Shown here one piece after another: positions 3,208 through 40,883 of a stretch of 56,594 nucleotides of DNA; within the stretch, counting starts at the first letter, position 1; every line of letters starts with the position of its first letter. The position numbers and the translations under genes were made by a program. The notes below the pieces were generated by a model. It was not told the origin of the DNA, made no database searches, and saw only the letters and a program-made list of their open reading frames with translations. The stretch comes from Clostridia bacterium (GTDB lineage: Bacteria > Bacillota > Clostridia > Monoglobales > Monoglobaceae): the NCBI GenBank assembly GCA_045595345.1, contig JAZOAF010000110.1, positions 1 to 56,594 on the forward strand, in the 5' to 3' direction.

Positions 3208-3227
3208 TTTTGCGAAATAACGCAAAA
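3208..3227 (+). terminator. weak hairpin after purC
   Basis: UUUUGCG-aaauaa-CGCAAAA stem-loop 5 nt after the purC stop; poor U tract. Confidence 0.35.
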
Positions 3228-3231
3228 CTTG

Positions 3232-3260
3232 TTGACAAACGAAAATTCATATGGTATAAT
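3232..3260 (+). promoter_or_regulatory. sigma-A promoter of the T-box leader
   Basis: Exact TTGACA (3232-3237), 17-nt spacer, TATAAT (3255-3260). Confidence 0.6.
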
Positions 3261-3274
3261 CTTAAAAGTATAAA

Positions 3275-3536
3275 GGCATTGACGAAGAGTGCGTAAAAAT
3301 ATGCCCTTGAGAGAGATGGCGGTTGGTGTGAGCCTGAGGAACAGTTTTTATGTTTGTAGCTTCCGAGCCGAGAGGAAGAAAGCGTTTTAGTTAGTAGAAC
3401 CTCTCCGTGATTGCTGCGTTAAAGCATAGGGGTTGATGGACCCCAAGAGTGGCGGAAATTCCGCAATTTGAGTGGTACCGCGGGTGAAGAAGTTTTACAC
3501 TCGTCTCAAAGAAAACTTTGGGACGGGTGTTTTTTT
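3275..3536 (+). promoter_or_regulatory. T-box transcription-attenuation leader (tentative specifier GUA/Val)
   Basis: Stem I K-turn halves 3275-3287/3360-3369; AG bulge GAGAGAG 3309-3315; distal loop GGUUGGUGUGA 3321-3331; T-box motif AAUUUGAGUGGUACCGCG 3465-3482; mutually exclusive antiterminator/terminator. Confidence 0.8.
3498..3536 (+). terminator. T-box leader terminator
   Basis: CACUCGUCUCAAAG / CUUUGGGACGGGUG stem followed by U7, 26 nt upstream of the ATG at 3563. Confidence 0.8.
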
Positions 3537-3562
3537 AGTCCCTAATAAAGGAGAAGATAGAA

Positions 3563-5854
3563 ATGGAACAAATGACAGGTCTTGATTTGAAAATCAAGGA
3601 AATGGCCGGCCGTATTAAAGAACTTCGTGAAATTGAAAACATTTCAATTGAAGATATGGCGAGTAAAACAGGCGTTTCTGCTACAGAATATCTAAACTGT
3701 GAAAACGGCGTAAGCGATTTGAACTTTGCGTTTATATACAGATGCGCTGCGGCTCTTCGTGTCAATGTTACGGATATTATTGAAGGATACAGCCCGAAGC
3801 TCAGGTCCTATACTGTAACTCGTGCAGGCTCAGGTCAGCAGATTGCAAAGGCTCACGGAATGACCTATTACAATATGGCTTATGCTTTCCGAAACAGAAT
3901 TGCAGAGCCACTCTATGTTCATAGTGTTTATAGCGAAGAAGCACAAAGCAAGGAGATAGAGGTTACAACACATGAAGGTCAGGAATGTGATATCGTTCTT
4001 GAAGGCCGTCTTATGGTCCAGATTGGCGACCACAAAGAGATTTTAGGACCCGGGGACAGCATTTATTATAACAGCAGCACCCCTCACGGTATGATTGCTG
4101 TCGATGGAAAAGATTGCTATTTCTATGCAATTGTATTAAATGCTAAGGGCGAGCCTATGACAGATAAGGAGCTTAGCCGTGTTGTTGCAACCCCTGTAAT
4201 CGCAGCGAGAAAAGACGAAAAAGACAGAATTTACAGAAAATATATTGATGTTGAGGAAAATGAAAATGGAACTCCTACATCGATCCAGTTTAAAAATACA
4301 GAAAACTTTAACTTTGCTTTTGATTTGGTTGATGTTCTTGCTAAAAAAGAGCCTGAAAAACTTGCAATGCTCCACATTTCAAAGGATAAAGTTGAAAGAA
4401 GATTTACCTTTAAGGATATGAAAAAAGCCTCCAACCAGTGCGCTAACTATTTTAAAACCTTGGGTATTAAAAAAGGCGACAGGGTTATGCTTGTTTTAAA
4501 GCGTCATTATCAGTTCTGGTTTGCAATGCTTGGCCTTAATAAGCTTGGCGCTATCGCAATTCCTGCAACAAATCAGCTCCAGGAACACGATTTTGAGTAT
4601 CGCTTTAAGAGCGCCGGCGTAAGTGCAGTAATTTGTACGGCAGACGGTGATACAGCAAATCAAATTGATATTGCGGCGGCAAATTGCCCTGAACTTACAA
4701 CTAAACTTTTAGTTGGCGGTCAAAGAGAAGGTTGGCGTGATTTTGACGAGGAATATACCCGTTACAGCACTCATTATAAGAGGGAGGATAATGCTCCGGG
4801 CGGAGATGACTTAATGCTTATGTTCTTCACATCCGGAACAACAGGATATCCTAAAATTGCGGCTCACAACTATAAGTACGCACTAGGCCATTTCCATACT
4901 GCAAAGTATTGGCATAATGTTGACCCTGACGGACTTCATTTTACGATTTCCGACACAGGCTGGGCTAAGGCGATGTGGGGCAAGCTCTAGGGACAATGGC
5001 TCTGCGAAGCGGCAACCTTTGTTTATGACTTTGACCGTTTTGATGCAGCCGACATTCTCCCAATGTTTGCAAAGTATCAGATAACAACATTCTGTGCTCC
5101 GCCTACAATGCTCAGGATGATGATTAAGCAGGATATATCTAAATACGATTTTTCATCTGTTAAGCATATGTCAACAGCTGGGGAAGCCCTAAATCCTGAG
5201 GTTTACAGACAATTTGAAAAAGCGACAGGGCTTCAAATTATTGAAGGCTTTGGCCAGACGGAAAGCACAATGATTATTGGTAATATGGTAGGTGCGCCTC
5301 ATAAGATTGGCTCTATGGGTAAACCGGCACCAATATATAATGTTGAGCTTGTGGACTCTGACGGAAATCCTGTTAAGACCAGTGAAAACGGTGAAATCGT
5401 TATCAATGTAAAAGACGGTGCACCTTGCGGATTGTTTACCGGATACTATAATGCTCCTGATAAAACCGCAGAAGTATGGCATGACGGGTATTATCATACC
5501 GGCGATGTTGCTTGGCGCGATGAGGATGGGTTCTATTGGTATGTTGGCCGTGCTGACGATGTTATCAAGTCATCAGGTTACAGAATCGGACCATTTGAAA
5601 TTGAGAGCGTTATCATGGAACTTCCGTATGTATTGGAATGTGGTGTTTCCCCTGTTCCTGACGAGGTAAGAGGCCAGATTGTTAAAGCGAGCATAGTGCT
5701 TGTTGACGGAACTGAACCAACAGAAGAACTCAAAAAGGACATCCAGACTTATGTTAAGGAGAAAACTGCTCCTTATAAGTATCCGCGAATTGTTGAATTC
5801 AAGGAAAGTCTCCCTAAAACAGTAAGCGGAAAAATACAGAGAAATTTACTCTAA
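3563..5854 (+). pseudogene. XRE-HTH + cupin + AMP-forming (medium-chain type) acyl-CoA synthetase fusion, interrupted by one in-frame TAG at 4988-4990
   Basis: ORFs 3563-4990 and 5063-5854 share one frame and homology continues across the stop ('GWAKAMWGKL*GQWLCEAATFVYD'). HTH aa ~10-75, cupin aa ~130-195. AMP-binding motifs 'FFTSGTTGYPK', 'GYYHTGD', 'GRADDVIKSSGYRIGPFEIES', 'PKTVSGKIQR'. Confidence 0.75.
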
Positions 5855-5876
5855 AAGACAAAATTTTATATGAAAT

Positions 5877-5903
5877 AAACACTCCGTTCGGGGTGTTTAT
5901 TTT
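5877..5903 (+). terminator. rho-independent terminator after the acyl-CoA synthetase gene
   Basis: AAACACUCC-guuc-GGGGUGUUU stem followed by a U-rich tract. Confidence 0.75.
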
Positions 5904-5904
5904 G

Positions 5905-5933
5905 TTGACATTATAAAAAAAATAGGTTATAAT
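5905..5933 (+). promoter_or_regulatory. sigma-A promoter of dxs
   Basis: Exact TTGACA (5905-5910), 17 nt, TATAAT (5928-5933). Confidence 0.6.
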
Positions 5934-5974: not shown

Positions 5975-7819
5975 ATGAAAATTCTTGATAAAATCAACAC
6001 TTCGGCAGACTTAAAAGCTCTGAATAATTCGGAAATTAAGGTGCTTTGCCAAGAAGTAAGAGAGTTTTTAGTTGAAAAGGTTTCCAAAACAGGAGGACAT
6101 CTTGCATCAAATCTTGGTGCAGTTGAACTTACTGTTGCTTTGCATCGCTCTTTAAACCTTGAAAGTGATAAAATTATATGGGATGTGGGACACCAGTCTT
6201 ATGTTCATAAAATTTTTACAGGTCGTAAAAAAGATTTTAACAATCTTCGAAAAATGGACGGCCTTTCAGGCTTTCCTAAAACTTCTGAAAGTGAGACTGA
6301 CAGCTTTAATACAGGACACAGCTCAACCTCAATTTCTGCTGCGTTGGGAATTGCGACAGCGAAAAAGCTTGCGGGAGAAGACGGGGTTGTGGTTGCGGTT
6401 ATCGGCGATGGTGCGATGACAGGCGGAATGGCTTATGAAGCTCTTAACCATGCAGGAAGCCTCAAAATCCCGATGATTATAATTTTAAACGATAACGGAA
6501 TTGCTATTTCTCCAAGTGTTGGCCTTTTGTCAACACAGCTTAATCGTCTCAGATTAACTCCCGGATATTTTAGGTTTAAGCGAGGCCTTAAAAAGTCAAC
6601 CAGAAAAATTCCGTTTATTGGAAAATCTATTGAGCGTGGCTTTTCGAAATTTAAAAACAGAGTAAAGAGAATATTTATAAAAGACGGCTTGTTTGAAAGC
6701 CTTGGAATAAAATATATGGGGCCTGCTGACGGCCACGATGTTGAAGAAATTGAACTTCTTTTAAATGAAGCGAAGAAGAATAAAGAGCTTACGGTTATTC
6801 ATATCCAGACAAAAAAGGGAAAAGGGTATATCCATGCGGAAAACTCCCCTGATGTTTTTCACGGTATTTCAAAATTTAACCCTGAGACAGGTCAGCCACT
6901 GGATAAAGAAAGCATAACCTATTCAAAGGTTTTTGGAGAAGCTCTCATTTCTCTTGCAGATAAAAATGAAAAGGTTGTAGGAATTACTGCGGCTATGCCT
7001 GACGGAACCGCAATGACTGATTTTGCAAAAAAATATCCTGACAGATTCTTTGATGTGGGTATAGCAGAGCAACACGCCGTAACATTTTCGGCAGGCCTTG
7101 CAACAAGGGGAATGGTGCCGGTTTTCGGAGTATATTCAACTTTTCTTCAAAGAGGCTACGACCAACTTCTCCATGATGTTGCGTTGCAGGATTTACACTG
7201 TGTTTTTGCAATTGACAGAGCAGGTATAGTAGGCAGAGATGGGGAAACCCACCAAGGCGTGTTTGACCTTTCGTACTTGTCTCCGCTGCCTAATTTTACA
7301 ATTATGGCTCCTTCGAACGGAGACGAACTTAAAAAGATGCTTTCACTTGCGGTAAATACTCTTGATGGCCCTGTTGCCATAAGATACCCAAGAGGCGAGG
7401 CGACTATCGGAAATGATGATGAGAAAATTGAGTTTGGAAAAGGCAGGGTTTTAAAGGATGGAACAGATGTTGCTTTGATAGCCATCGGCTCTTCCGTCGA
7501 AGATGCGCTTTTGGCATCTGAAATTCTTGAAAGCAAGGGCATAAGTACGGCGGTTCTTGATATGAGGTTTTTAAAACCTCTTGACCGCGACCTTGTTCAA
7601 AGATATATTGAAAAATGTAAAATTGTTGCAACTGTTGAGGAAAATGTTTCAACGGGCGGGTTATACAGTGCGGTTAAGGAAATTTCCGATGCAGATATTT
7701 TAAGATTTTCTCTTCCGTGCGAACCAATTCAGATGGGTTCGATTATGGAAATTAAGAAAAAATATAACCTTGACGGCGAGAGCATTGCAAAGACAATTTT
7801 GAAAAAATTTGATAAATAG
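5975..7819 (+). CDS. dxs: 1-deoxy-D-xylulose-5-phosphate synthase
   Basis: 'GGHLASNLGAVELTVALH' and the 'GDGAMTGGMAYEALN' ThDP motif; length 614 aa. Confidence 0.95.
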   Translation: MKILDKINTSADLKALNNSEIKVLCQEVREFLVEKVSKTGGHLASNLGAVELTVALHRSLNLESDKIIWDVGHQSYVHKIFTGRKKDFNNLRKMDGLSGFPKTSESETDSFNTGHSSTSISAALGIATAKKLAGEDGVVVAVIGDGAMTGGMAYEALNHAGSLKIPMIIILNDNGIAISPSVGLLSTQLNRLRLTPGYFRFKRGLKKSTRKIPFIGKSIERGFSKFKNRVKRIFIKDGLFESLGIKYMGPADGHDVEEIELLLNEAKKNKELTVIHIQTKKGKGYIHAENSPDVFHGISKFNPETGQPLDKESITYSKVFGEALISLADKNEKVVGITAAMPDGTAMTDFAKKYPDRFFDVGIAEQHAVTFSAGLATRGMVPVFGVYSTFLQRGYDQLLHDVALQDLHCVFAIDRAGIVGRDGETHQGVFDLSYLSPLPNFTIMAPSNGDELKKMLSLAVNTLDGPVAIRYPRGEATIGNDDEKIEFGKGRVLKDGTDVALIAIGSSVEDALLASEILESKGISTAVLDMRFLKPLDRDLVQRYIEKCKIVATVEENVSTGGLYSAVKEISDADILRFSLPCEPIQMGSIMEIKKKYNLDGESIAKTILKKFDK

Positions 7820-26635: not shown

Positions 26636-26785
26636 GTCGGAACACCTCCAAAAAATATTAGCACCTTTTTACATAAAAAAAGCGCGAGAGCATAGCTTCC
26701 GCACAAAAATATCAAAATAAATTGATGAGCCCTTTTGCACCATTTTGCTAAGGGGAGAAGCGGAAAACTTCTGCTTTACCAAGAA
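26636..26785 (-). promoter_or_regulatory. infC-rpmI-rplT leader with attenuator-like hairpin (possible L20-responsive leader)
   Basis: ~150-nt 5' UTR between the promoter and the infC RBS; hairpin GCGGAAGC-uau-GCUCUCGC (26682-26702) followed by U7 (26675-26681) on the minus strand. Confidence 0.4.
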
Positions 26786-40806: not shown

Positions 40807-40883
40807 TGGTGGATCTTCAGGGACTCGAACCCCGGACCAACCGGTTATGAGCCGGTTGCTCTAACCAACTGAGCTAAAGATCC
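40807..40883 (-). tRNA. tRNA with CAU anticodon (Met-type; sequence most like the lysidine-modified tRNA-Ile2)
   Basis: 77-nt cloverleaf GGATCTT/AAGATCC acceptor, GCTC/GAGC D stem, ACCGG-CTCATAA-CCGGT anticodon arm, CGGGG-TTCGAGT-CCCTG T arm, A73, encoded CCA. Confidence 0.9.

What the first reader, a model, noticed from the sequence alone, without database searches (positions are those of the whole stretch)
3232..3562. T-box leader (tentative Val specifier) controlling an acyl-CoA synthetase fusion rather than an aaRS, biosynthesis or transport gene
Seen in sequence: an exact TTGACA-17-TATAAT promoter precedes Stem I, which shows K-turn halves GGCAUUGACGAAG (3275-3287) / CUUCCGAGCC (3360-3369), AG bulge GAGAGAG (3309-3315) and distal loop GGUUGGUGUGA (3321-3331). 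Downstream lie the T-box motif AAUUUGAGUGGUACCGCG (3465-3482) and a terminator (3498-3536) whose 5' arm CACUCG can pair with CGGGUG of the T-box to form the antiterminator. By positional analogy with the B. subtilis glyQS leader, the 3' side of the specifier loop is UUUGUAG (3353-3359). That puts GUA (Val) at 3356-3358 followed by a purine. The antiterminator bulge UGGU implies discriminator A73, which fits tRNA-Val but not the alternative UGU/Cys reading (tRNA-Cys has U73). One caveat: the usual GAA before the codon is UUU here, so the specifier call is tentative. T-boxes normally control aaRS, amino-acid biosynthesis or transporter genes, whereas the only gene downstream here is an HTH-cupin-acyl-CoA synthetase. 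My hypothesis is that the enzyme activates isobutyrate to isobutyryl-CoA for reductive carboxylation to 2-oxoisovalerate and valine. That route is known in rumen and gut anaerobes and would make sensing of uncharged tRNA-Val logical.
Basis: partly seen in the sequence, partly recalled or inferred. Interest (0 to 1): 0.7.

Follow-up and report, generated by a model that had tools for sequence, protein, structure and literature searches.

The report
Valine T-box controlling isobutyrate-type CoA ligase
A genuine tRNA-sensing T-box switch, set for valine, controls an unusual regulator-enzyme fusion that most likely activates isobutyrate so gut and rumen bacteria can turn it back into valine; in this particular sequence the enzyme gene carries a premature stop codon.

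Summary
Window 3270-3511 matches the whole Rfam T-box model (87.4 bits, E about 1e-17 to 1e-20; curated cutoff 93). It has a perfect promoter and a strong terminator that competes with the antiterminator.

All 77 related loci with upstream DNA carry the same leader before the same HTH-cupin-acyl-CoA-synthetase gene. Four of ten tested orthologous leaders pass the Rfam cutoff.

The specifier is GUA (73 leaders) or GUC (3), always followed by a purine next to a covariation-supported helix. The bulge is always UGGU, which fits A73 of tRNA-Val and not U73 of tRNA-Cys.

- In 53 of 67 loci the gene is followed by a VorB-class 2-oxoacid:ferredoxin oxidoreductase and IlvE.
- In 52 of 68 loci it is preceded by a paralogous fusion behind a duplicated T-box reading AUC (Ile).
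- The synthetase module is closest to MacsMa (3ETC, prefers 2-methylbutyrate) and to MbcS.

Caveats:
- The window has the gene alone, with an in-frame TAG (4988-4990) replacing an invariant Tyr.
- Substrate and tRNA response are inferred, not measured.
- The role of the HTH-cupin module is unknown.

The parts
3232..3260 (+). Sigma-70-type promoter: TTGACA (3232-3237), 17-nt spacer, TATAAT (3255-3260), with extended -10 TG at 3252-3253
   Evidence: 12 of 12 matches. An equivalent TTGACA-17-TAnAAT promoter lies 11-29 nt before Stem I in nearly all 70 orthologous leaders examined.
3270..3511 (+). T-box leader as aligned to Rfam RF00230 (full model: Stem I, Stem II, IIA/B, Stem III, antiterminator)
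   Evidence: 87.4 bits, E = 9.9e-20, model positions 1-219 of 219; E = 1.2e-17 against the whole window.
3275..3369 (+). Stem I. K-turn halves at 3275-3287 and 3360-3369; lower helix GAAG 3284-3287 paired with CUUC 3360-3363; AG bulge 3309-3315; distal loop 3321-3331.
   Evidence: Consensus fold of 70 orthologous Stem I sequences: 16 of 19 pairs show compensatory changes. The top pair of the lower helix is G-C in 57 and A-U in 13.
3356..3359 (+). Specifier GUA (Val, 3356-3358) plus the conserved 3' purine G3359
   Evidence: The covariance model puts it on the same codon columns as CUC and AUC of neighbouring leaders. GUA in 73 and GUC in 3 leaders; next base G in 64 and A in 12; preceding base U in 76 of 76.
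3370..3421 (+). Stem II (GAGAGG...CCUCUC with a GAA element) and the Stem IIA/B element CGUGAUUGCUGCGUUA (3406-3421)
   Evidence: Covariance-model alignment. The stretch is nearly identical in Val-type and Ile-type leaders.
3451..3464 (+). Stem III, flanked by GAGUG on the 5' side and AA on the 3' side (the RRRxG-Stem III-AA motif)
   Evidence: Covariance-model alignment. The motif is described in PMC7583486.
3465..3508 (+). T-box sequence and antiterminator: helix A1 3469-3472, 7-nt bulge UGGUACC 3473-3479 (UGGU pairs with tRNA 3'-ACCA), helix A2 3480-3484, 3' strand CUCGUCUCA 3500-3508
   Evidence: TGGTACCGCG is present in 77 of 77 orthologous leaders, and the bulge is always UGGU.
3497..3537 (+). 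Intrinsic terminator (15-bp stem, loop AAAA, U7 tail) that overlaps the antiterminator's 3' strand
   Evidence: Free energy -22.2 kcal/mol, z = -7.4. Conserved, with compensatory changes, in the orthologues.
3563..5854 (+). HTH(XRE)-cupin-acyl-CoA synthetase fusion gene (763 codons), RBS GGAG at 3550-3553. In this window it is interrupted by an in-frame TAG.
   Evidence: Pfam HTH_19/HTH_3, Cupin_2, AMP-binding and AMP-binding_C. Intact 763-aa orthologues at 94-97% identity in the same context. Best PDB hit 3ETC, E = 1e-191.
4988..4990 (+). In-frame TAG (codon 476) replacing a Tyr codon (TAC or TAT in the closest relatives)
   Evidence: Tyr is invariant in 137 paralogue copies. TAG is a normal stop elsewhere in the window.
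5872..5903 (+). Hairpin terminator after the fusion gene. The dxs gene then has its own perfect promoter (5905-5933), so the T-box unit is monocistronic here.
   Evidence: Free energy -16.8 kcal/mol, z = -5.6. Promoter 12 of 12 matches.

Best explanation
This is a class I (transcription-attenuating) T-box riboswitch specific for tRNA-Val.

**Mechanism.**
1. Transcription starts at the consensus promoter at 3232-3260.
2. Stem I reads the anticodon of tRNA-Val through the specifier GUA (3356-3358) and docks the tRNA elbow on the AG-bulge/distal-loop platform.
3. If the tRNA is uncharged, its 3'-ACCA end pairs with UGGU (3473-3476) and stabilises the antiterminator (3469-3508).
4. The terminator (3497-3537) then does not form, and the downstream gene is transcribed.
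5. Charged tRNA-Val cannot do this, so transcription stops at the U-run.

**The gene.** It encodes an XRE-HTH + cupin + AMP-forming acyl-CoA synthetase. The synthetase most likely activates isobutyrate to isobutyryl-CoA. A VorB-type 2-oxoisovalerate:ferredoxin oxidoreductase then reductively carboxylates this to 2-oxoisovalerate, and IlvE transaminates it to valine. A paralogous fusion behind a duplicated leader with an Ile specifier (AUC) would do the same for 2-methylbutyrate and isoleucine.

**Shown here:** the RNA architecture, its conservation, the specifier register, the gene families and the synteny.

**Inferred:** the tRNA response, the substrate and the direction of flux.

**This window's copy.** The unit is monocistronic. 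The oxidoreductase and aminotransferase are not within the 56 kb. The synthetase gene carries a premature TAG, so this copy may be inactive, or the TAG may be a sequencing error.
For: **RNA**
- Full-length match to RF00230; orthologous leaders pass the Rfam cutoff.
- 16 of 19 Stem I pairs show compensatory changes.
- The terminator and antiterminator are mutually exclusive.
- 77 of 77 loci with upstream DNA carry the leader, each with its own promoter.

**Specifier**
- GUA or GUC followed by a purine in 76 of 76 leaders.
- Same register as AUC in 52 of 52 paralogous leaders and as CUC in the leuA leaders.
- UGGU is invariant, and tRNA-Val in L028 has A73-CCA.
- The rules for the 3' purine and for UGGN pairing with NCCA are given in PMC7583486.

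**Enzyme**
- 3ETC (MacsMa) is the best PDB hit at E = 1e-191, and MacsMa prefers 2-methylbutyrate (PMC10455477).
- The best NCBIfam family is MbcS, whose type enzyme selectively activates 2-methylbutyrate and isobutyrate (PMC10026030).
- Val-type fusions have Ala and Ile-type fusions have Gly in the DTGW[A/G]K motif, where MacsMa has Gly.

**Context**
- 53 of 67 loci with enough downstream DNA have a P-loop protein, oxidoreductase delta/alpha/beta/gamma and a class IV aminotransferase directly after the fusion.
- The alpha subunit passes the VorB model (543 bits against 399), and the aminotransferase passes IlvE (485 against 307).
- No terminator was found between the fusion and ilvE in L001.
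- 52 of 68 loci with enough upstream DNA have the Ile-type paralogue upstream.
- Val and Ile leaders are about 75% identical, against about 63% to the Leu leader, so leader and gene were duplicated together.
Against: - The window's leader scores 5.6 bits below Rfam's gathering threshold.
- The specifier loop lacks the usual GAA; it reads GUUU.
- UGU (Cys) is also invariant in the loop, so conservation alone does not exclude it.
- The window and about a fifth of related loci have the fusion alone, with no oxidoreductase or aminotransferase nearby.
- The window's gene has a premature TAG.
- The synthetase scores well below the MbcS equivalog cutoff (441 against 850), so its substrate is not established.
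- More distant fusion homologues (43-54% identity) have no T-box.
- Nothing here explains why an HTH-cupin module is fused to the enzyme.
- No experiment was done or found on tRNA binding, substrate or flux.
Confidence: 0.72

Rival explanations
1. The T-box reading is the same (Val), but the enzyme salvages isobutyrate as isobutyryl-CoA to prime branched-chain fatty-acid synthesis for the membrane, as MbcS does in Staphylococcus aureus, rather than to make valine. Valine is normally the source of that primer, so a valine shortage would logically induce the salvage route.
For: MbcS is the best-scoring NCBIfam family, and its described role is supplying branched-chain fatty-acid primers (PMC10026030). 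In the window and 14-16 other loci the fusion stands alone, without an oxidoreductase or aminotransferase.
Against: - In most genomes the gene is followed directly, with no detected terminator, by VorB-class oxidoreductase and IlvE genes. Under valine starvation these make sense only in the biosynthetic direction.
- The paralogue pair maps onto two amino acids through two tRNA-specific leaders.
- The score is far below the MbcS equivalog cutoff.
Confidence: 0.12
2. The main product function is regulatory. The HTH-cupin-synthetase would be a 'trigger enzyme', comparable to the biotin ligase/repressor BirA (an analogy from general knowledge). It would bind DNA depending on acyl-adenylate, acyl-CoA or amino-acid occupancy, so the T-box controls the level of a transcription factor as much as of an enzyme.
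For: - The N-terminal XRE-type HTH and cupin domains are conserved across the family.
- 11 of the 17 residues that cleanly separate Val-type from Ile-type paralogues lie in the first 117 residues, inside the HTH-cupin module. This suggests a paralogue-specific ligand or partner.
- The stand-alone relatives MacsMa and MbcS lack this module.
Against: - No conserved operator-like palindrome was seen near the promoters. The 3208-3227 palindrome is confined to close relatives.
- The catalytic motifs of the synthetase are fully conserved.
- The structure model was too poor to assess a DNA-binding or ligand site.
- This reading does not exclude the best explanation.
Confidence: 0.1
3. The specifier is UGU (Cys, 3355-3357), so the leader senses tRNA-Cys.
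For: UGU is invariant in all 76 leaders, and A follows it in most.
Against: - In this register two nucleotides would separate the codon from the lower helix, and the base after the codon would be C in three loci.
- The covariance model puts GUA, not UGU, on the codon columns.
- The same one-base shift in the paralogous leaders gives CAU, UAU or GAU, which is no single amino acid.
- UGGU implies discriminator A73, whereas bacterial tRNA-Cys has U73 (established knowledge; the pairing rule is).
- No UGC variant occurs.
- The neighbouring genes concern branched-chain amino acids, not sulfur metabolism.
Confidence: 0.02
4. The juxtaposition is fortuitous, or the leader is a decaying remnant (for example of a former valS leader) with no role for this gene.
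For: The window's leader scores below Rfam's cutoff, and the gene carries a stop codon.
Against: - The leader-gene pairing is conserved in 77 of 77 loci across many species, with compensatory changes in the helices.
- Promoter, terminator and RBS are all intact.
- The closest relatives have the identical leader and an intact gene.
Confidence: 0.02

Closest known systems
T-box riboswitch family (Rfam RF00230), feature-complete transcriptional type, as in Bacillus subtilis tyrS
   Same: K-turn, long Stem I with specifier loop, AG bulge and distal loop, Stem II with IIA/B element, Stem III with flanking purines, 7-nt bulge starting with UGGN, and a competing antiterminator and terminator.
   Different: - The specifier loop has no GAA before the codon; it reads G-U-U-U with an invariant U next to the codon.
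- The window's copy scores just under the Rfam cutoff.
- The controlled gene is an acyl-CoA synthetase fusion, not an aaRS, a classical biosynthetic operon or a transporter. Two T-box regulon surveys do not list such targets.
T-box-controlled branched-chain amino-acid biosynthesis genes, such as the Leu-specific leaders of leuA (reported in PMC2494555 for Geobacter and Pelobacter; the B. subtilis ilv-leu operon from general knowledge)
   Same: A tRNA-sensing leader switches on a route to a branched-chain amino acid when that amino acid's tRNA is uncharged. The related loci themselves carry a Leu (CUC) T-box before a leuA-like gene.
   Different: Here the route starts from an external carboxylic acid (salvage by reductive carboxylation) rather than from pyruvate. 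Two paralogous leader-gene pairs divide the work between Val and Ile.
MacsMa, the medium-chain acyl-CoA synthetase of Methanosarcina acetivorans (PDB 3ETC)
   Same: Closest solved relative of the synthetase module: E = 1e-191, aligned over about 516 residues. MacsMa prefers the branched acid 2-methylbutyrate (PMC10455477).
   Different: - MacsMa has no HTH-cupin extension and is archaeal.
- The Val-type fusion has Ala where MacsMa and the Ile-type fusion have Gly in DTGW[A/G]K.
- The substrate was not tested here.
MbcS, the methylbutyryl-CoA synthetase of Staphylococcus aureus (NCBIfam NF047394)
   Same: Best-scoring NCBIfam family for both paralogues (about 441 bits). MbcS selectively activates 2-methylbutyrate and isobutyrate (PMC10026030).
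   Different: - The score is far below the equivalog cutoff (850).
- MbcS feeds fatty-acid synthesis.
- The papers read here describe neither a T-box nor a fused HTH-cupin for MbcS.
Reductive carboxylation of isoacids to branched-chain amino acids in rumen and gut anaerobes (classical physiology; 2-ketoisovalerate:ferredoxin oxidoreductase, VOR)
   Same: The gene set in related loci matches the steps: acid to acyl-CoA, then to 2-oxoacid (VorB-class oxidoreductase with delta, alpha, beta and gamma subunits), then to the amino acid (IlvE). Carboxylation of isovalerate to leucine in the rumen is cited in PMC7356843.
   Different: In the searchable literature I found no assignment of this fusion, or of T-box control, to the pathway. 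The window itself contains only the first step.

Membership tests
T-box leader (Rfam RF00230) | Covariance-model score at or above the curated gathering score (93 bits) | tested here: not met
   The window scores 87.4 bits, though E = 1e-17 to 1e-20 over the full model. Orthologous leaders in L001, L041, L069 and L079 score 99.7-101.6 and pass. The shortfall comes from the atypical specifier loop, not from missing elements.
T-box leader (Rfam RF00230) | Stem I with a K-turn at the base, an AG bulge and a distal loop (the tRNA-elbow platform) | tested here: met
   The sequence elements are present. AGAGA and GGUUGGUG are conserved, and 16 of 19 helix pairs covary across 70 leaders.
T-box leader (Rfam RF00230) | Specifier loop presenting a codon followed by a conserved purine | tested here: met
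   GUA or GUC followed by G or A in 76 of 76 leaders, adjacent to the covarying lower helix. The rule is given in PMC7583486.
T-box leader (Rfam RF00230) | GAA (S-turn) element 5' of the codon in the specifier loop | tested here: not met
   The window has GUUU. Positions -2 to -4 vary and position -1 is always U.
T-box leader (Rfam RF00230) | Conserved T-box sequence with a 7-nt bulge starting UGGN, complementary to the tRNA NCCA end | tested here: met
   AAUUUGAGUGGUACCGCG at 3465-3482. UGGU is present in 77 of 77 leaders. tRNA-Val from L028 ends A73-CCA.
T-box leader (Rfam RF00230) | Mutually exclusive antiterminator and intrinsic terminator | tested here: met
   The strand at 3500-3508 is shared between them. 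The terminator folds at -22.2 kcal/mol, z = -7.4, with a U7 tail.
T-box leader (Rfam RF00230) | Read-through induced by uncharged cognate tRNA | not testable with these tools
   This needs in vitro transcription or in vivo reporter assays.
MbcS acyl-CoA synthetase (NCBIfam NF047394, equivalog) | Score at or above the equivalog cutoff (850 bits) | tested here: not met
   441 bits for both P0001 and the Ile-type paralogue. Related, but not filed as MbcS.
Macs-type branched short/medium-chain acyl-CoA synthetases (MacsMa, 3ETC) | Full-length homology of the adenylate-forming and C-terminal domains, with conserved core motifs | tested here: met
   E = 1e-191 over residues 21-536 of the module. Pfam AMP-binding plus AMP-binding_C. 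TSGTTGYPK and the other motifs are invariant.
Macs-type branched short/medium-chain acyl-CoA synthetases (MacsMa, 3ETC) | Preference for small branched acids (isobutyrate or 2-methylbutyrate) | not testable with these tools
   Inferred only, from homology, the Ala/Gly difference between paralogues, and the Val and Ile leaders.
VOR-dependent reductive-carboxylation route to valine | 2-oxoisovalerate:ferredoxin oxidoreductase and a branched-chain aminotransferase encoded with the synthetase | tested here: inconclusive
   Met in 53 of 67 related loci, where VorB scores 543 against 399 and IlvE 485 against 307. Not met within this 56-kb window. The rest of the genome was not available.

The most novel reading that the evidence does not exclude
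The HTH-cupin-synthetase is a bifunctional 'trigger enzyme'. The cupin and HTH modules would sense the branched acid, its acyl-adenylate or acyl-CoA, or the amino acid, and feed back on transcription or on enzyme activity. Isoacid assimilation would then be gated by two independent inputs: demand, read from tRNA charging by paralogue-specific T-boxes, and supply or product, read by the protein itself. The Val/Ile paralogue pair would have co-evolved RNA specifier, enzyme pocket and sensor domain after a single duplication.
Probability: 0.25. Interest if true: 0.78.

Novelty: new variant of a known kind. Interest (0 to 1): 0.62.

Why it matters
Rumen and gut fibre-degrading Clostridia have long been known to need or use 'isoacids' (isobutyrate, 2-methylbutyrate, isovalerate), but the genes and regulation behind this are poorly assigned.

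Here the T-box acts as a built-in label. A Val-specific leader and an Ile-specific leader sit in front of two paralogous, uncharacterised HTH-cupin-acyl-CoA-synthetase genes, next to VorB-class oxidoreductase and IlvE genes. Together they give a concrete, testable gene set for converting isobutyrate to valine and 2-methylbutyrate to isoleucine.

The family is large: more than 8000 homologous proteins at E <= 1e-20, and at least 596 matching stretches in species-representative genomes, mostly uncultured Oscillospirales from human, ruminant and other animal guts.

The finding also extends the T-box regulon to carboxylate-salvage enzymes. It shows a leader and its gene being duplicated together, with only the specifier changed. 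And it offers natural specificity-swap material in the form of the RNA codon and the Ala/Gly pocket residue.

Tried and rejected
- **Default Rfam scan.** The gathering-threshold scan found no T-box. Only the permissive scan did.
- **Cys reading.** I first read the covariance-model alignment as putting UGU right after the 'GAA' columns. Comparison with the Leu and Ile leaders showed that the codon columns are the three before the last loop base, so I rejected this.
- **L056.** It seemed to lack the leader. That came from a wrong gene-start coordinate, and the leader is there.
- **Ile-paralogue specifiers.** Three 'GTA' calls among them (L021, L035, L064) were artefacts of paralogues cut off at the contig end.
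- **Operator search.** The palindrome TTTTGCGAAATAACGCAAAA (3208-3227), just upstream of the -35 element, is only partly kept in L081. No common palindrome appears in 70 promoters, so I dropped it.
- **Structure prediction.** The full-length model of the intact relative P0001 (44-sequence alignment) had mean pLDDT 58, with the cupin region below 50. No fold search was run because the matches would be meaningless.
- **A third specificity (Leu or Phe).** Only three full-length fusion clusters exist at 50% identity. The metagenome scan with the most distant one found fusions with no T-box, plus one Ile-type leader. No Leu- or Phe-type fusion was found.
- **Literature.** Vitreschak 2008 and the MacsMa structure paper are not held in the library. 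My recollection that the Ala/Gly position aligns with an acyl-pocket residue of acetyl-CoA synthetase could not be verified.
- **tRNA scan of 60 loci.** It gave one tRNA-Val and no tRNA-Cys.
Full report
**1. Is the feature there?**

Yes.
- A perfect TTGACA-17-TATAAT promoter with an extended -10 TG lies at 3232-3260.
- The K-turn halves are at 3275-3287 and 3360-3369.
- The AG bulge is at 3309-3315 and the distal loop at 3321-3331.
- The T-box sequence is at 3465-3482.
- The terminator has a 15-bp stem at 3497-3530 followed by seven U. It folds at -22.2 kcal/mol (z = -7.4, 0 of 200 shuffles as good).

The default Rfam scan reported no T-box. The permissive scan aligns the whole RF00230 model (positions 1-219) to 3270-3511 at 87.4 bits. 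E is 9.9e-20 for the region and 1.2e-17 for the whole window, and the curated cutoff is 93.

The alignment shows every module of a feature-complete transcriptional T-box: Stem I, Stem II, the IIA/B element CGUGAUUGCUGCGUUA, Stem III with its RRRxG...AA flanks, and the antiterminator. The antiterminator's 3' strand (3500-3508) is shared with the terminator.

**2. Is it conserved with the gene?**

The downstream ORFs 3563-4990 and 5063-5854 are one gene in one frame, split by a TAG. The gene encodes XRE-type HTH + Cupin_2 + AMP-binding + AMP-binding_C.

The fusion is common. More than 8000 proteins score E <= 1e-20. At least 596 stretches in species-representative genomes encode relatives, almost all from uncultured Acutalibacteraceae, Oscillospiraceae and other Clostridia of human, ruminant and other animal guts.

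Of the best 80 loci, 77 have upstream DNA, and all 77 carry TGGTACCGCG about 85-190 nt before the start codon. In four of the ten loci tested, the fusion's leader exceeds the Rfam cutoff, at 99.7-101.6 bits. Nearly all have their own TTGACA-17-TAnAAT promoter. A consensus fold of 70 distinct Stem I sequences has 19 pairs, 16 of them with compensatory changes. The juxtaposition is therefore not fortuitous.

**3. Which amino acid?**

The 3' side of the specifier loop is G-U-U-U-G-U-A-G (3352-3359), one base longer than the textbook GAA-NNN-R and without GAA. Five results settle the register.
- (i) The covariance model places G3356-U-A3358 on the same three model columns that hold CUC in the leuA leaders and AUC in the paralogous leaders of L001 and L069. 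G3359 falls on the following 'purine' column.
- (ii) In 76 orthologous leaders that triplet is GUA (73) or GUC (3), both Val codons. The next base is always a purine (G 64, A 12).
- (iii) The helix right after that purine is fixed by covariation (G-C 57, A-U 13). This matches the rule that a conserved purine immediately follows the specifier (PMC7583486).
- (iv) The competing UGU (Cys) register would leave two bases before the helix and would be followed by C in three loci. It has no UGC variants. Applied to the paralogous leaders, it gives CAU, UAU or GAU.
- (v) The bulge is UGGU in every leader, implying discriminator A73. A tRNA-Val found in related locus L028 ends ...UGUCUCC-A-CCA. That bacterial tRNA-Cys has U73 is established knowledge and was not tested here.

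The +1 register gives UAG, UAA or UCA and is meaningless. The specifier is Val.

**4. What does the gene do?**

The synthetase module's closest solved relative is 3ETC, at E = 1e-191 over about 516 residues. 3ETC is MacsMa of Methanosarcina acetivorans, whose preferred substrate is 2-methylbutyrate (PMC10455477). [quoted passage not shown]

The best NCBIfam family is MbcS (441 bits, below the 850 equivalog cutoff). The type enzyme selectively activates 2-methylbutyrate and isobutyrate (PMC10026030).

**5. Decisive context from relatives.**

In L001 the gene order is as follows:
- leuS fragment, then a HAD hydrolase.
- Promoter and T-box with AUC(Ile), then a 755-aa paralogous fusion.
- Promoter and T-box with GUA(Val), then the orthologue of the window's gene.
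- A 221-aa P-loop (CbiA/ParA-like) protein.
- A 71-aa ferredoxin subunit with two [4Fe-4S] motifs.
- Oxidoreductase alpha, beta and gamma subunits.
- A class IV aminotransferase.
- Promoter and T-box with CUC(Leu), then a leuA-like gene.

The alpha subunit passes NCBI's VorB (3-methyl-2-oxobutanoate dehydrogenase) model at 543 bits against 399. The aminotransferase passes IlvE at 485 against 307.

Of 67 loci with at least 2.5 kb downstream, 53 have this P-loop and oxidoreductase block, usually with ilvE. Of 68 loci with at least 3 kb upstream, 52 have the paralogue. The paralogue's leader reads AUC in all 52 real cases and also has UGGU.

No convincing terminator lies between the Val-type fusion and ilvE in L001. 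There the Val T-box probably gates the whole set.

Val-type and Ile-type leaders of one genome are about 75% identical, with long identical runs through IIA/B, Stem III and the T-box. Identity to the Leu leader is about 63%. Leader and gene were therefore duplicated together and the specifier changed.

The two protein types are 65% identical. Seventeen positions separate them cleanly. One is Ala (Val-type) versus Gly (Ile-type and MacsMa) in DTGW[A/G]K. From memory this aligns with an acyl-pocket residue of acetyl-CoA synthetase, but I could not verify that.

**6. Mechanism proposed.**

Uncharged tRNA-Val stabilises the antiterminator, and the synthetase is made. It converts isobutyrate to isobutyryl-CoA. 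VOR carboxylates that reductively to 2-oxoisovalerate, and IlvE makes valine. 2-Oxoisovalerate also feeds the Leu-T-box-controlled leuA route. The Ile paralogue does the same with 2-methylbutyrate.

Induction by starvation, an AMP-forming (effectively irreversible) ligase, and the two tRNA specificities all argue for the biosynthetic direction. None of the biochemical steps was measured.

**7. What is particular to this window.**

The unit is monocistronic. A hairpin at 5872-5903 (-16.8 kcal/mol, z = -5.6) follows the gene, and dxs has its own perfect promoter. No oxidoreductase, aminotransferase or Ile paralogue lies within the 56 kb.

The closest relatives (P0001 at 97%, P0004 at 94%) share the purC-fusion-dxs-tlyA-nadK-recN context and an identical leader core, but have an intact 763-aa gene.

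The window's TAG replaces TAC or TAT. That Tyr is invariant in 137 paralogue copies, and TAG is an ordinary stop elsewhere in the window. This is either a recent nonsense allele or a sequencing error.

**8. Limits of the family and of the evidence.**

At 50% clustering only three full-length fusion clusters exist. More distant fusions (43-54% identity) have no T-box, and one at 58% has an Ile-type leader. T-box control is therefore a trait of the Oscillospirales Val/Ile pair.

The role of the HTH-cupin module is unknown. Eleven of the 17 paralogue-specific residues fall in its first 117 residues, which hints at paralogue-specific sensing. No conserved operator was found, and the structure model was too poor to use.

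**9. Prior knowledge.**

Eight full-text searches found no paper linking a T-box to this fusion, or to an acyl-CoA synthetase and VOR cluster. Two T-box regulon surveys do not mention such targets. Vitreschak et al. 2008 was not available, so an earlier mention cannot be excluded.

**10. Verdict.**

This is a real, conserved, Val-specific T-box. The RNA is an ordinary member of its class with an atypical specifier loop. The interest lies in what it labels.

Noticed in passing
window 4988-4990: An in-frame TAG interrupts the fusion gene at codon 476. The closest relatives have TAC or TAT (Tyr) there, and that Tyr is invariant in 137 paralogue copies. It is either a nonsense allele or a sequencing error.
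   Followed up: yes
L001 3099-5656 (also L069 3121-5657 and about 50 other loci): A paralogous HTH-cupin-synthetase sits behind a duplicated T-box whose specifier is AUC (Ile). The base after the codon is C in 24 of 52 leaders, which departs from the conserved-purine rule.
   Followed up: partly
L001 8317-12684 (and 53 of 67 loci): A conserved block follows the Val-type fusion: a 221-aa CbiA/ParA-like P-loop protein with no NCBIfam match, a 71-aa ferredoxin subunit with two [4Fe-4S] motifs, VorB-class oxidoreductase alpha, beta and gamma subunits, and IlvE. The role of the P-loop protein is unexplained.
   Followed up: partly
L001 12740-12973; L069 12693-12928: A third T-box with specifier CUC (Leu), scoring 108.8-128.5 bits, precedes a leuA-like (HMGL-type) gene at the end of the cluster.
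   Followed up: partly
Fusion protein residues 1-117 (window 3563-3913): Eleven of the 17 residues that cleanly distinguish Val-type from Ile-type paralogues lie in the HTH-cupin module (I11L, N54P, Y59H, R60K, I72L, I73L, P78A, A97E, M100I, Y102I, L117Y). This suggests paralogue-specific sensing.
   Followed up: partly
window 3208-3227: The palindrome TTTTGCGAAATAACGCAAAA lies between the purC stop codon and the -35 element. It is kept in L082 and L083, imperfect in L081, and absent from more distant promoters. It could be a weak purC terminator or an operator.
   Followed up: partly
window 3355: The base immediately 5' of the specifier is U in 76 of 76 Val-type leaders. It could extend the pairing to A37 of tRNA-Val, as UGUA against 3'-ACAU-5'. 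This is speculative.
   Followed up: no
window 26670-26782 (- strand): A sub-threshold match to the ribosomal protein L20 leader (RF00558): 52.4 bits against a gathering score of 58.7, E = 1.5e-7.
   Followed up: no
window 40810-40883 (- strand): The only tRNA gene in the window; its anticodon is CAU (72.3 bits).
   Followed up: no
window 5905-5933: A second perfect TTGACA-17-TATAAT promoter, directly upstream of dxs (5975-7819).
   Followed up: no
P0124 (representative protein, 758 aa): The most distant full-length fusion cluster (44% identity) has a degenerate phosphate-binding motif, FLQSYSYGMAKP, in place of FFTSGTTGYPK. It may be a catalytically inactive, purely regulatory derivative.
   Followed up: no
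L085-L089, L098: Distant HTH-cupin-synthetase fusions (43-54% identity; G+C 36-61%) have no T-box core motif upstream. One of them, L088, is followed by an oxidoreductase alpha-subunit gene.
   Followed up: partly
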